Shown piece after piece: positions 6,641-31,560 of a stretch of DNA of 64,000 bases. How positions within the stretch are numbered: position 1 is the stretch's first letter; every line of letters begins with the position of its first letter. Source of the DNA: Eledone cirrhosa (lineage: Eukaryota); contig OZ024740.1 of the NCBI GenBank assembly GCA_964016885.1, forward strand, positions 268,956,001-269,020,000. The letters run 5' to 3'. The notes beneath the pieces were generated by a model. The model was not told the DNA's origin. It saw nothing but the letters and a program-made list of their open reading frames with translations, and searched no databases. The position numbers were made by a program, and so were the translations under genes.

Positions 6641-6848
6641 AGGAACAAGTAAGACCCCGACGGCTGAGCTCAAGCCGTTTCGACGGCTAATTCTGTACTA
6701 ATTCAGTACAGAATTAGCGAGCGGTCGAAACGGCTTGAGCTCAGCCGTCGGGGTCTTACTTGTTCCCATTACCCACTCTACTACCCTAAGTATTGAGTAC
6801 TTTGGTGCGTTATGGTCCACCTGGTTCCTTACCACATTTCCTTCGTTA
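6641..6848 (+). mobile_element. Fold-back element, GACCCC family (half-hammerhead)
   Basis: Hairpin with GAAA CGGCU..AGCCG UC GGGGUC on the 3' arm, flanked by (TA)n. Homologs at 7878, 9716 and 31368. Confidence 0.8.
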
Positions 6849-7449
6849 TATATATATATATATATATATATATATATATATACATAAATGAATACAAACA
6901 CAGACATGTACACACACACACACACACACTCATAAATATATATACATATGCAAATTTATTTTATATAATATAATTTACTCAGTTTCACAAGAGCTGGTTG
7001 TCTGGGATGTGCTGAAGTAAATGAATCTCACTTCATTTATATCGATACTTTTATCGTAGTGAATGTGCGTCAGTAAGAGGGATAAAGAGTATTTCTTAAA
7101 CCCCGGATTCTCTCACATATAAATGAATATGTTTCATTAATCTAAATTAATCTTTAAATTCAAGCGTAGTGACTTGAAACCTTGAGCTTTAATAATACAT
7201 AGAAACATACATGCATACACACACACAAACACAAACGCACACATACACAGAGGATAGACATGCTTTATTTGGAAGACAGCTTAGTATGTTTCTGTAAATA
7301 CATTCATATTTCTGTCGTTGTGTGCATTTCTGAGGTATTGTGGCAGATTATATAAACACATTTAACGAGATTTTATATAATAATATATTGTCCCTTTATG
7401 TGAAAAGTGATAGTTTACTTTCATCAATGACAGAAAGTCTCTTGCTATA

Positions 7450-7633
7450 CGAGGGCGGTTGAACATTATTAGACTGACCAAAACTCTCTCATGCAATGAC
7501 CAAATAAGATTTATTTTTCAAATAGAAACAATGCAGTTATCAATCAGAATGGATGAAATTAATGCAGGCAAGATTTCACAGCTCTAGCATCACTCCTTCT
7601 TAATCAGCCTATGAATTTTTAGCCTGCCCTCTT
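7450..7633. mobile_element. Mariner-type MITE (degenerate)
   Basis: TA CGAGGGCGGTTGAA ... TTTAGCCTGCCCTC; homologous to 56274-56463. Confidence 0.6.
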
Positions 7634-7692
7634 GCACACACACACGCACGCACAAACACACACACACACACACACATATATATCTATCTATC

Positions 7693-7800
7693 TAAGGCGG
7701 GTAAAATTCCCGAGATCCATGGACGAGTTCTCTCCAGCGGTCTCTGTCCCTCATTATCGCTGCCATATCCTGCATCTCCAACAGACCAGTGTCTGTCCTT
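7693..7800 (-). mobile_element. RTE LINE 3' tip
   Basis: Translates IRTDTGLLEMQDMAAIMRDRDRWRELV. Confidence 0.65.
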
Positions 7801-7877
7801 ATATATATATATAATGTATATATATATATATATATTACTATATTACATTGAAAGTAATCTATATATATATATATATA

Positions 7878-8065
7878 TAACGAAGGAAATGTGGTAAGGA
7901 ACCAGGTGGACCGTAACGCACCAAAGTACTCAATACTTAGGGTAGTAGAGTGGGTAATAGAAACGAGTAAGACCCCGACGGCTGAGCTCAAGCCGTTTCG
8001 ACGGTTAATTCTGGACTAGCCGTCGAAACGACTTGAGCTCAGCCGTCGGGGTCTTACTCGTTCCT
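7878..8065 (-). mobile_element. Fold-back element, GACCCC family
   Basis: Near-identical to 6641-6848 in the opposite orientation, between (TA)n tracts. Confidence 0.8.
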
Positions 8066-8409
8066 ATATATATATATATATATATATATATATATATATA
8101 TATATATATATATATATATATATATATATATATATATATATATATATAAATGAAAATATAAATGAAAATAGAGAAATTTATGTGAGCAAGAAGCCAACAG
8201 TAATTCATACATATAAGTGACTATTACGTCAAGATGGAAAATATTTAACGTAAGATATGGGAAAATAATTCAATCTCAATTTTAAAAAAAGTCAAGACAG
8301 AAATTTTGTCACAGATTTTGTGTAATCCAAGGAAAAAACCAATAGAGTCTTAACTCAGAATAAAATTAAGGGTAAATAGTTATCCTTCAATTTTGAAAAA
8401 TCTACAAAT

Positions 8410-8490
8410 GCTCTATATAGTCTTAAAAAGACTATTTCACGAAACTTTTCAGTGGTGTTAGTCACGGCTGGAATCGTTCATCAGTAGAGC
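8410..8490 (-). ncRNA. Type I hammerhead ribozyme with a full 7-bp helix III
   Basis: Reverse complement: GCUCUA, CUGAUGA, ACGA...UCGU, GAAA, UAGUCUU uuu AAGACUA, UA|UAGAGC. Confidence 0.9.
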
Positions 8491-28334: not shown

Positions 28335-29312
28335 TTCAGCATGTGTACACTTAAATGTAATTCTCAGGGAGATTCAGCATGTGTACTCTTAAATTTAATT
28401 TTCAGGGAGATTCAGCAAATGTAAACTTAAATGTAATTCTTAGGGAGATTCAGCATGTGTACACTTAAATAGAATTCTCAGGGAGATTCAGCATCTGTAC
28501 TCTTAAATGTAATTCTCAGGGAGATTCTGCATGTGTACACTTAAATTTAATTCTTAGGGAGATTCAGCATGTGTACACTTAAATGGAATTCTCAGGGAGA
28601 TTCAGCATGTGTACTCTTAAATGGAATTCTTAGGGAGATTCAGCATGTGTACTCTTAAATGGAATTCTCAGGGAGATTCAGCATGCGTACTCTTAAATAG
28701 AATTCTCAGGGAGATTCAGTATGTGTACTCTTAAATTTAATTTTCAGGGAGATTCAGCAAATATAAACTTAAATGTAATTCTTAGGGAGATTCAGCATGT
28801 GTACACTTAAATAGAATTCTCAGGGAGATTCAGCATCTGTACTCTTAAATGTAATTCTCAGGGAGATTCAGCATGTGTACTCTTAAATTTAATTTTCAGG
28901 GAGATTCAGCATGTGTACTCTTAAATGTAATTCTCAGGGAGATTCTGCATGTGTACACTTAAATGTAATTCTTAGGGAGATTCAGCATGTGTACACTTAA
29001 ATGGAATTCTCAGGGAGATTCAGCATGTGTACTCTTAAATGGAATTCTCAGGGAGATTCAGCATGTGTACTCTTAAATAGAATTCTCAGGGAGATTCAGC
29101 ATCTGTACTCTTAAATGTAATTCTCAGGGAGATTCTGCATGTGTACACTTAAATGTAATTCTCAGGGAGATTCAGCATGTGTACTCTTCAGCATATGTGA
29201 GCCTAAATGGAATTCTCAGGGAGATTCAGCATGTGTACTCTTAAATGGAATTCTCAGGGAGATTCAGCATGTGTACTCTTAAATGTAATTCTCAGGGAGA
29301 TTCAGTATGTAT
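28335..29312. repeat. 38-bp minisatellite, about 25 units
   Basis: Unit TTCAGCATGTGTACTCTTAAATGTAATTCTCAGGGAGA, head-to-tail with no spacers. Confidence 0.95.
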
Positions 29313-30380
29313 ACGCTTGAATGAAGGAAACGAGTCGATAACAACATATAGGGTGGTCTATAAATTAATAGGGAATGGACTTCATATATAACCATGGTTA
29401 ACTTCCTTCTTACATATATCAACAGAACGTAGACCGTTTATCTACATATTTAGTTGTTATCTACTTATGTGTATAATATATATACACACATCATGTATAC
29501 ATTTTATATAAACATACGTAGTTATTATCTACATATGTTATTATCTACACGCATGCATGTATATATTGTCTATTTGCAAATGTTTGTGTATTTGTATGTC
29601 TGTTCCACGATGCATAATAATAATCGTTTTGAAGATTCCACTCTCTCTCTCTCTCTCTCTCTCTCTCTCTCTCTCTCTCTCTCTCTCTCTCTCTCTCTCT
29701 CTCTCTCTCTCTCACTCACTCTCCCTCTCTCTTTCTCTCTCTCTCACTCTTTCTCTCTCACTCTCTCTCTCTCTCTCACTCTCTCTCTCTCTCTCTCTCT
29801 CTCTCTCCCTCTCTCTTTCTCTCTCCCTCACTCTTTCTCTCTCTCTCTCTCTCAAATGTATGTCAACTTTCATGAAAGTTCGTATTTTTCATGAATGATC
29901 GTTTGTGTTCTAAAAGAATCAAGAATCCTTTTAAATATATATAAAAGCACAAAATTGTATGAACAAAGTACAGTTGAACTTTACATCAGTTATAGAGAGT
30001 TCAGCAAAGTGACGTGTTACTAACTGCAAGACAAACGCACTTTACCACAAAAAAACACAGAGCTACTTCCAGTTTACCAAAATGTGATAATAATAAGCAC
30101 AATAGGACACTGGGTCCAACGATATAAGCCTTCCGTTTACAAGAACATCTTAAATGAGGTAAGCTTCCTCATTGATTTATATCTCCTTGGTGAAGATATT
30201 CATAAACGAGAACGTTGTTTAACCAGAAGTTCTTGCTTAATTTCCTTCAAAATATGCGATAGAAATTATCTCCCCTACTAAAAGTAATATATTTTGTATT
30301 TTCAGGTCATATAATTATTAATAATGTTATATCGCGCAATGGCCATACTCGATAACGAGGGGGCAGACAACATATATATA

Positions 30381-30768
30381 CGAGGGTAATCCCAAAAGTA
30401 AGGTCTCCAAAACGATGGGGCCGCAGAGAAACTATTCGTACAGCTGTTGGCAACACTGTTGTGATTGGAGCTACCTTCACCTCCAAACAAGCATGCGCCA
30501 GCTGGGATGCTCAATCTTGGCTTGGCAGCCGTTGAGAATGAAGCTCCCGTTGAACGCTACCGCCAAGTGCGAATTTCGCGTAGTTATTATATAGAGGGCA
30601 ATCCCAAAAGTAAGGTCTCCTTCCGAGGAAAACATGCGTAAAGATCGGCGGATCACTCTGGATGCTCTCTGTATTTTGGTTCCTGAGGTTTCCCGAAGTA
30701 CCATCCACAGGATTTTAACGGAAAAGTTGCAATGTCGGAAGGAGACCTTACTTTTGGGATTGCCCTCG
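30381..30768 (+). mobile_element. Internally deleted mariner element with an extra internal TIR
   Basis: TIR CGAGGG(T/C)AATCCCAAAAGTAAGGTCTCC at both ends with TA flanks. Transposase fragment DRRITLDALCILVPEVSRSTIHRILTEKL. Confidence 0.85.
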
Positions 30769-30860
30769 TATATATATATATTTGTGTATAGTGGTAGCTA
30801 TGGTGCTTCCGTAGGCGGAATGCCAAAATGAATGATAACATTTGCTCCGGACATAACACC

Positions 30861-30951
30861 CGTGTCTGAGAGAACCCGCAGAAGTAGAATCAGTCAGATC
30901 CATACAAGGACCATGACTCGAGCTACATGCCGGCGAAACATTTGTAACACG
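30861..30951 (+). ncRNA. Type I hammerhead with one extra core nucleotide (CUGAGAGA)
   Basis: CGUGU, CUGAGAGA, [CC GCA..GUAG..AGUCA..UGACU..CUAC.UGC.GG], GAAA, CAUUUG, UA|ACACG. AATAAA and then (TA)n follow. Confidence 0.7.
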
Positions 30952-31076
30952 AAATAAACTAAGTCCAGATGCATCACTGATTTTTCGTTTTCTTGATAAT
31001 ATATATATATATATATATATATATATATATATATATATATATATATATATATATATGTATGTATATATATTAATAA

Positions 31077-31220
31077 TAATTGTTTCTAGTTTTAGCACAA
31101 GGCCAGCAATTACTCAGTGCATTACTGGTACTTTATTTTATCGACGCCGTAAGGATGAAAGGCAAAGTGAACCTCGGCGGGATTTGAACTCAGACCGTAG
31201 AGGGACGTAACTATGCTGTA
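31077..31220 (-). mobile_element. SINE family A
   Basis: Homologous to 35302-35492. Confidence 0.8.
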
Positions 31221-31367
31221 GTAATAATAATAAATGTAAAGACTAAAATCCAAAGAGGGCTTGATGAGGATAAATATATATCAAATATATAAGAACCCTA
31301 GAGCAAATATTTATTAAAATAACAGATTAAAGTTTTATATATATATATATATATATATATATATATA

Positions 31368-31560
31368 TAACGAAGGAAATGTGGTAAGGAACCAGGTGGA
31401 CCATAACGCACCAAAGTACTCAATACTTAGGGTAGTAGAATGGGTAATAGGAACAAGTAAGACCCCGACGGCTGAGCTCAAGCCGTTTCGACGGCTAATT
31501 CTGTAGAATTAGCCGTCGAAACGGCTTGAGCTCAGCCGTCGGGGGTCTTACTTGTTCCTA
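31368..31560 (-). mobile_element. Fold-back element, GACCCC family
   Basis: Near-identical to 7878-8065, between (TA)n tracts. Confidence 0.8.

What the first reader, a model, noticed from the sequence alone, without database searches (positions are those of the whole stretch)
6641..31560. GACCCC family: the intact copies fold back at ribozyme helix II and lose the CUGAUGA half
Seen: copies at 6641, 7878, 9716 and 31368 (and a diverged one at 9550) carry the 3' half of a strong HHR (GAAA CGGCU..AGCCG UC|GGGGUC). Where CUGANGA should lie upstream there is instead the reverse complement of that half. The symmetry axis is always 10-25 nt upstream of GAAA, where the helix II loop would be, and the loop sequences differ between copies. 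Inference: nascent cDNA snaps back on the ribozyme's own helix II and self-primes. That would explain inverted pLTRs mechanistically and produce MITE-like hairpins by a retro route.
Basis: partly seen in the sequence, partly recalled or inferred. Interest (0 to 1): 0.75.

Follow-up and report, generated by a model that had tools for sequence, protein, structure and literature searches.

The report
Penelope fold-backs stop at transcript start
These small hairpins are head-to-head stubs of a Penelope-type jumping gene, likely made when its RNA was copied twice and both copies ran off a capped RNA start that is predicted to lie inside the element's ribozyme, rather than by the ribozyme folding one copy back on itself.

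Summary
The hairpins are real: 18,157 short fold-backs genome-wide against 27 for the control pattern. The parent exists but has a U3-A8 core (TTGANAA), not CTGANGA (4,284 matches). It is a (TA)n-targeting Penelope-like element with the Hydra-clade motifs.

Snap-back on helix II is refuted. Its predicted product occurs 0 times. The tail-less arm reaches further 5' as often as the tailed arm (33 vs 36 of 95), so two separate cDNAs are needed.

Arms stop at a wall 18-23 nt before GAAA (0 of 88 unselected arms end at -24 to -59). An Inr-like YAGT lies there, and a non-parental G precedes it 5,403 times against 890 for A, as a copied cap would give. A second family has its wall about 30 nt after TATAAATA, outside helix II.

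Best reading: twin target-primed cDNAs run off a capped start inside loop II and are joined head to head. No RNA data were available, so the start is inferred. This scan's agents reached the same reading on other genomes. New here: the Hydra clade, genome-wide counts, and a start that would split the ribozyme.

The parts
6641..6848 (+). Head-to-head PLE stub. Tail-less arm on - (GAAA at 6681) reaches -18; tailed arm on + (GAAA at 6727) reaches -22 and has a 4-nt insertion. In (TA)n.
7878..8066 (-). Head-to-head PLE stub. Tailed arm on - (GAAA at 7999) reaches -18/-19; tail-less arm on + (GAAA at 8025) reaches -8.
9545..9705 (-). Diverged subfamily. Tailed arm (GAAA at 9633) ends at -18 (AGTTCGGATCTAG); partner starts inside helix III after an inserted inverted piece.
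9715..9914 (+). Head-to-head PLE stub. Tailed arm on + (GAAA at 9791) ends at A9773 (-18) with G9772 before it, the commonest junction type; this G could be cap-derived or come from the partner arm.
18881..18971 (+). Minimal stub: about 8 nt of an S end joined to a tail-only arm, in (TA)n.
31368..31560 (-). Head-to-head PLE stub. Tailed arm on - (GAAA at 31489) reaches -16; tail-less arm on + (GAAA at 31518) reaches -13.
41402..41581 (.). Control family D fold-back. Canonical CUGAUGA core kept on both arms; the axis near 41514 lies in the helix I 5' strand, about 30 nt after the parent's TATAAATA.

Best explanation
The hairpins are very short head-to-head insertions of a (TA)n-targeting Penelope-like retrotransposon with the Hydra-clade motifs, likely made from two separate cDNAs that each ran off a predicted capped RNA start inside the ribozyme's helix II loop. 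Shown: the parent is a ~3.5-kb unit with one RT + C-terminal GIY-YIG ORF and a type I hammerhead fold with a U3-A8 core. Shown: every clearly typed short pair but one has one arm ending at +42 (S) and one at +121 (T), and arms stop at -18 to -23 with an excess of G at -19. Inferred step 1: the protein nicks both strands of (TA)n and primes reverse transcription from two internal sites, S and T, on the same RNA. Inferred step 2: on RNA started at A(-18) these sites lie only ~60 and ~140 nt from the 5' end, so the RT runs off and often copies the cap. Inferred step 3: the two cDNA ends are trimmed and joined head to head by microhomology or end-joining, each serving as the other's second-strand template. 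Inferred step 4: priming at the downstream repeat of a longer RNA gives the kb-long inverted pairs that keep the whole ribozyme. The stubs lack the UUGANAA half because the transcript likely begins downstream of it.
For: Two cDNAs: T longer 36, S longer 33, within 1 nt 26 of 95 (p=0.81). Long pairs: T longer 8, S longer 7 of 15 clear pairs among 20 regions. S arm joined to a partner that stops inside the tail in 8 of 153. Pair types per arm: 198 S/T, 2 T/T, 23 unclear of 223. Arms of one element are identical at +29 to +40 in 60 of 99 against 8.7% for random pairs. Two RT starts that define the tail, and cleavage and extension of both strands, were shown in vitro for a Poseidon PLE (PMC11167929). 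Wall: of 88 unselected arms, 15 end at 0 to -9, 37 at -10 to -17, 32 at -18 to -23, 0 at -24 to -59, and 4 read through. Contig depth in run X1 rises from 153k to 2.68M across the bin holding -18/-22. Base before A(-18): G 5,403, A 890, parental C/T 21,578. None of 30 G copies continues into parent sequence; 21 of 30 G and 24 of 30 A are not exactly templated by the partner. YAGT at -19 to -16 is in 10 of 10 aligned parents. Family D: TATAAATA lies 29-31 nt upstream of the wall in 5 of 5 parents; of 51 arms, 32 end 0-11 nt 5' of C3, 13 end earlier and 6 read through.
Against: No RNA evidence for the start site. In the 88 unselected arms the base before -18 was G 5, A 4, C 4, T 1, much weaker than the genome-wide 6:1. 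9 of 30 G are partner-templated, up to 13 by my reading if one mismatch is allowed. G before -17 is also common (1,714) and I could not count C/T there genome-wide. A G excess could reflect RT terminal addition of C rather than a cap. 18 of 88 arms end at -19 to -23, and A(-22) closes the apical loop of a predicted upper stem, so a structure-caused stop is not excluded. The TATA-like TATTTAAA 29 nt upstream is not conserved in two subfamilies. Of 40 copies that run from tail into ORF, none starts exactly at -18 with G: 5 start at -12 to -22, 22 read through, 3 start at -1 to -3, and 10 lack the anchor (read-through count by my reading). Family B shows no wall near its ribozyme (49 arms). Run X1 may be the assembly's own sample. 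Arm concordance could also come from gene conversion.
Confidence: 0.66

Rival explanations
1. Two cDNAs as above, but the wall is an RT stop or RNA break caused by the upper stem of helix II (or by uncapped RNA ends), not a capped start; the extra G is terminal addition or microhomology.
For: A predicted upper stem spans -14 to -22 and its apical loop begins at -23. 18 of 88 arms end at -19 to -23. G is weak in the small unselected sample. TATA is not conserved in all subfamilies. None of 40 ORF-bearing copies starts at -18 with G.
Against: Family D's wall lies outside helix II and 29-31 nt after a canonical TATAAATA in 5 of 5 parents. G:A is 5,403:890 at one position. A diverged subfamily with a different loop II still has arms ending at the same A(-18).
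Confidence: 0.22
2. One reading: one nascent cDNA snaps back on helix II, or on a mini-palindrome near it, and self-primes.
For: The axis lies within the helix II region. The commonest junctions look like 4-6-nt loops with 1-4 nt of microhomology. Self-priming was proposed for PLE inverted junctions (PMC3846280).
Against: The helix II product occurs 0 times; 0 of 95 keep loop II and 1 of 95 keeps the apical loop, with both arms at -37. The S arm is often the longer one. Tail-only partners exist. A fixed stop at +42 would need a separate cause. It may still account for some T-longer copies.
Confidence: 0.06
3. One hairpin spread as a DNA transposon (MITE) or was re-mobilised as a unit, and the centres were later reshuffled by palindrome instability.
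For: The outer ends are fixed, and a few centres recur (6, 4 and 3 of 95).
Against: 84 distinct centres among 95. Centres are always parent-derived and carry matching subfamily marks on both arms. There is a continuum up to kb-long pairs with an RT-EN ORF. The one-sided tail and the non-parental G are unexplained. Later central deletion may still account for some of the arms ending short of -18.
Confidence: 0.04

Closest known systems
Hydra clade of EN+ Penelope-like elements (PMC8557442; section 11 read whole, other passages)
   Same: Single ORF with C-terminal GIY-YIG, RW(K/R), DKT, CxCx5C linker, CxxC and CxH, no CCHH, (TA)n target, HHR present.
   Different: Unit ~3.5 kb against 'generally <3 kb'; RWR for RWK; U3-A8 core and a long helix III; tail ~80 nt against 30-40; tens of thousands of stubs.
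Inverted pLTR plus one-sided tail of EN+ PLEs (PMC3846280 passages; PMC8557442 passages; PMC2377424 passages)
   Same: Head-to-head inverted 5'-truncated copy, tail on one side, junction palindromes; TSS inside the pLTR in D. virilis Penelope.
   Different: PMC3846280 proposed self-priming; here the arm lengths need two cDNAs, and most insertions are only the two stubs.
Poseidon PAc in-vitro mechanism (PMC11167929; main text read, parts 1-2 of 4)
   Same: Two internal RT starts that define the tail, both strands cut and extended, predicted dimer, uncleaved RNA as template.
   Different: The parts read do not address how inverted junctions form or where cDNAs end; different clade.
U3-A8 hammerhead variant in Schistosoma Cercyon PLEs (PMC4209133; parts 1-2 of 4 read)
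   Same: Same core covariation in a PLE; opposite-strand HHR pairs 100-700 bp apart were noted there.
   Different: There a minimal HHR; here a 6-bp helix III and a ~40-nt loop II that holds the inferred start site.
L1/SVA cap-derived 5' G and twin priming (PMC3287187 passages; PMC11702581 passages)
   Same: Extra G at full-length 5' junctions; two RT reactions from both target ends, joined by microhomology.
   Different: L1 twin priming inverts an upstream segment; here both cDNAs copy the same segment from element-defined internal starts.

Membership tests
EN+ Penelope-like element | Single ORF with RT and GIY-YIG endonuclease | tested here: met
   786-aa open frame in L080 with D..Y, MG, YRDD, FLD and VIY..YIG motifs, read by eye. 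Pfam gave 0 hits on 5 ORFs and on the query again. Homolog P0002 (39% identity) hits GIY-YIG above cutoff.
EN+ Penelope-like element | Partial tandems, inverted 5'-truncated copy, one-sided tail | tested here: met
   tandem spacing ~3.5 kb.
EN+ Penelope-like element | Hammerhead motif in the pLTR | tested here: met
   Three-way fold in 3 of 3 parents, with z only -0.64, -1.58 and -2.70. U3/A8 in 73 of 75 (most were selected by a U3-A8 pattern). 95.6% of cells paired but only one compensatory change in 10 rows, not above shuffles.
Hydra clade | RWK, DKT, CxCx5C linker, CxxC and CxH, CCHH absent | tested here: met
   RWR, SDKTG, CNCPDRSIC, CNLC, CKH and one Cys in the GIY-YIG core, against the text of PMC8557442 section 11.
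Hydra clade | (TA)n insertion preference | tested here: met
   Ends run into (TA)n in the window copies and most loci.
Hydra clade | Placement in the RT phylogeny with reference Hydra proteins | not tested
   No named reference proteins were fetched; the paper's supplements were not opened.
Active hammerhead ribozyme | Self-cleavage at GUC | not testable with these tools
   Needs an in-vitro assay. The stubs lack the 5' core and cannot cleave as monomers (sequence).
MITE / TIR DNA transposon | Uniform internal sequence and symmetrical TIR ends | tested here: not met
   84 distinct centres of 95; one-sided ~80-nt tail. A TSD cannot be read in (TA)n.
Helix II snap-back product | Whole loop II kept between the arms, and tailed arm at least as long as the tail-less arm | tested here: not met
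Pol II start at A(-18) | Capped RNA 5' ends at the site | tested here: inconclusive
   Indirect only: wall, G excess, Inr-like motif and the family D control.

The most novel reading that the evidence does not exclude
This Hydra-clade PLE starts its transcript inside loop II of its own hammerhead, so the 5' ribozyme copy is born split and only read-through copies can cut. Its RT, primed twice near that 5' end, writes about 18,000 or more head-to-head 'strong-stop' cDNA pairs into the genome. These would be a fossil record that PLE inverted pLTRs form by twin priming and capped run-off, and that PLE start sites can be read from genome sequence alone.
Probability: 0.55. Interest if true: 0.68.

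Novelty: new variant of a known kind. Interest (0 to 1): 0.5.

Why it matters
How PLEs build inverted pLTRs and tails is called undefined in PMC8557442, and the published genomic proposal was self-priming (PMC3846280). The arm-length symmetry and tail-only partners argue for two cDNAs in vivo and tie the in-vitro double initiation of PMC11167929 to the inverted junction. The wall with an extra G gives a base-precise, testable start site. A start inside the ribozyme would bear on the open question of what PLE hammerheads do. The architecture itself is known, and this scan noted the same mechanism on other genomes, which limits the surprise.

Tried and rejected
- Rfam: no hammerhead among the 150 of 185 rows shown.
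- CTGANGA parent search: 17 matches, all junction or chimera coincidences.
- Pfam on the ORFs: 0 hits.
- RNA runs: no RNA holder listed. Contigs cannot show starts; only one strand-change joint passed the filter.
- Covariation of the HHR: not above shuffles.
- A first extent score with X-drop over-called -22 and was replaced by a strict rule, which under-calls arms with indels (e.g. 6727).
- A single-reference extension of ORF-bearing copies failed on subfamily differences and was redone.
- 6 of 14 sample blocks held no arm, so density is patchy. The 88 unselected arms are 54 block arms plus 34 incidental ones.
- The 95/105-element sets include loci chosen by patterns at -18 and may hold a few duplicates. 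They are used for T/S symmetry, not for the wall.
- Long pairs: of 20 regions, 5 were left out (L086 overlaps L087; L082, L093, L096 unclear; L088 looked S/S but lies in a tandem repeat).
- Family B shows no wall near its HHR.
- Literature searches listed no paper that, in the parts read, ties PLE inverted junctions to a capped start. Most subscription papers are not covered, and supplements of PMC8557442 and PMC11167929 were not opened and may list such families or junctions.
- Earlier-findings look-up by sequence: nothing.
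Full report
Setting. The window lies on C1 of a 3.0-Gb genome rich in (TA)n. Its repeats resemble those of octopus, which is recalled and not tested. Positions below are relative to the G of GAAA on the RNA-sense strand.

Observation. Four hairpins and one diverged copy are present as described. The axes lie 22.5, 12.5, 16 and 14 nt from GAAA, and the anchor has 9 hits in the window against 0 in 30 shuffles. The arms are unequal: one ends at +42 (S) and the other at +121 (T), both in (TA)n. 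Genome-wide, a short fold-back pattern matches 18,157 places against 27 for the control.

The parent. A CTGANGA search gave 17 coincidental matches. Longer copies show ACCCC-TTGANAA-G..CGGCTA, a loop of about 40 nt, then TAGCCG-TC-GAAAC. This is a type I hammerhead with U3-A8 in place of C3-G8, and it has 4,284 exact matches. Three parents fold into the three-way junction with modest z-scores; covariation in 10 rows is not above shuffles. U3-A8 was reported in Schistosoma PLEs (PMC4209133). Many complete ribozymes stand in head-to-head pairs kilobases apart. [quoted passage not shown] Pfam finds nothing in it, but a 39%-identical homolog hits GIY-YIG. RWR, DKT, CxCx5C, CxxC, CxH, the missing CCHH and the (TA)n target match the Hydra clade as described in PMC8557442 section 11. 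No tree was built.

Test of helix II snap-back. That model predicts the whole loop II between the arms. The pattern for it has 0 matches, while its second half matches 58 of 75 parents. 0 of 95 elements keep loop II, and 1 of 95 keeps the apical loop of the upper stem, with both arms at -37. The model also predicts that the tailed arm reaches at least as far as the tail-less arm. Observed: T longer 36, S longer 33, within 1 nt 26; in clear long pairs T longer 8 and S longer 7, by up to 2.4 kb. Eight of 153 short S arms are joined to a partner that stops inside the tail. Two cDNAs, primed at S and T, are therefore needed. Both arms share subfamily marks (60 of 99 identical at +29 to +40 against 8.7% at random), which fits one RNA but also gene conversion. 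Two internal RT starts and extension of both strands were shown in vitro for a Poseidon PLE (PMC11167929). Self-priming was the earlier proposal (PMC3846280).

Why the arms stop where they do. Of 88 unselected arms, 15 end at 0 to -9, 37 at -10 to -17, 14 at -18, 18 at -19 to -23, none at -24 to -59, and 4 read through. The first 30 arms on C1 that reach -14 give 20 ends at -14 to -22, one at -56 and 9 read-through. Contig depth in run X1 rises about 18-fold across the same place (possibly the same sample, and a coarse measure). A(-18) sits in YAGT, kept in 10 of 10 aligned parents. A TATA-like TATTTAAA starts 29 nt upstream in the main subfamilies but not in two others; the Inr and TATA consensus and spacing are recalled. 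The base before A(-18) is parental C/T 21,578 times, G 5,403 and A 890. None of 30 G copies continues into parent sequence; 9 of 30 G and 6 of 30 A can be read from the partner. Three of 95 elements carry G on both arms. An extra G marks full-length L1 and SVA 5' ends and is attributed to the cap (PMC3287187, PMC11702581).

Control family. A second (TA)n family with a canonical CUGAUGA core (window 41402-41581) folds back 5' of the core, in helix I. In 5 of 5 parents TATAAATA starts 29-31 nt before that point. Of 51 arms, 32 end 0-11 nt before C3, 13 end earlier and 6 read through. The wall thus follows the promoter spacing, not helix II. Family B shows no such wall near its ribozyme (49 arms).

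Results against this reading. The G excess is weak in the unselected sample (G 5, A 4, C 4, T 1). G before -17 is also frequent (1,714). A(-22) borders the apical loop of a predicted upper stem. Of 40 copies that run from the tail into the ORF (taken in listed order from 304 matches, leaving out two already seen and inner tandem members), none starts at -18 with G. Five start at -12 to -22, 22 read through, 3 start at -1 to -3, and 10 lack the anchor. Templates that extend upstream of -18 therefore exist. The start site itself is not shown.

Mechanism. Shown: parent, fixed S and T ends, arm symmetry, wall, G excess. Inferred: nicks on both strands of (TA)n; priming at S and T; run-off at a capped 5' end 60 and 140 nt away; trimming and head-to-head joining (overlaps of 0-2 nt are commonest and insertions occur); long inverted pairs when priming is at the downstream repeat. 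The stubs lose the UUGANAA half because the RNA likely starts after it.

Comparison and novelty. This is a new family with the Hydra-clade motifs, showing the known inverted-pLTR-plus-tail architecture at minimum size. Searches listed no paper tying the junction to a capped start, within their limits. Short PLE insertions from 5' truncation are known (median 128 bp, PMC9977147 passages). The retrozyme preprint 10.64898/2026.07.22.740005 (part 1 of 5 read) concerns tandem units. This scan's earlier agents reached the twin-cDNA and capped-start reading on other genomes. My reading was set down before that look-up, and those notes are not independent support. Verdict: observation confirmed, first mechanism refuted, replacement at 0.66, interest 0.5.

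Noticed in passing
window 41402-41581, 15650-15750: Family D: (TA)n PLE-type family with a canonical HHR; fold-backs break about 30 nt after TATAAATA and keep the whole ribozyme. Its tail shares GTATTGAGTAC with the GACCCC family.
   Followed up: yes
window 6433-6606, 19946, 25179-25256, 39681-39913: Family B: AT-rich CUGAUGA hammerhead family in inverted pairs with variable, longer arms and no wall near the ribozyme.
   Followed up: partly
window 36594-37835: Inverted pair of 426-nt arms, 98% complementary, each with a CTGAAGA..GAAA motif (family C).
   Followed up: no
window 9395-9435 (-): Solo minimal Penelope-type hammerhead (family E), 14 copies in the sample.
   Followed up: no
G000:C2:356030079-356031001; G000:C1:27009639-27009921: Tandem units of 299 and 257 bp holding the tail-to-ORF junction of this family; possible retrozymes.
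   Followed up: no
L173, L349, L351, L369, L375: Parents with a C3-A8 mismatched core, perhaps a subfamily with an impaired ribozyme.
   Followed up: no
L033, L037, L040: Arms of this family joined directly to the same other repeat just after a CTGAGGA motif; possible inter-family chimeras.
   Followed up: partly
L031: Both arms end near -37 (this call's count), one with a G before it; a possible minor upstream start.
   Followed up: no
window 10070-10243: Another hairpin element whose two ends both match the T-end motif of this family.
   Followed up: no
window 28221-29318: Tandem array with a 38-nt period.
   Followed up: no
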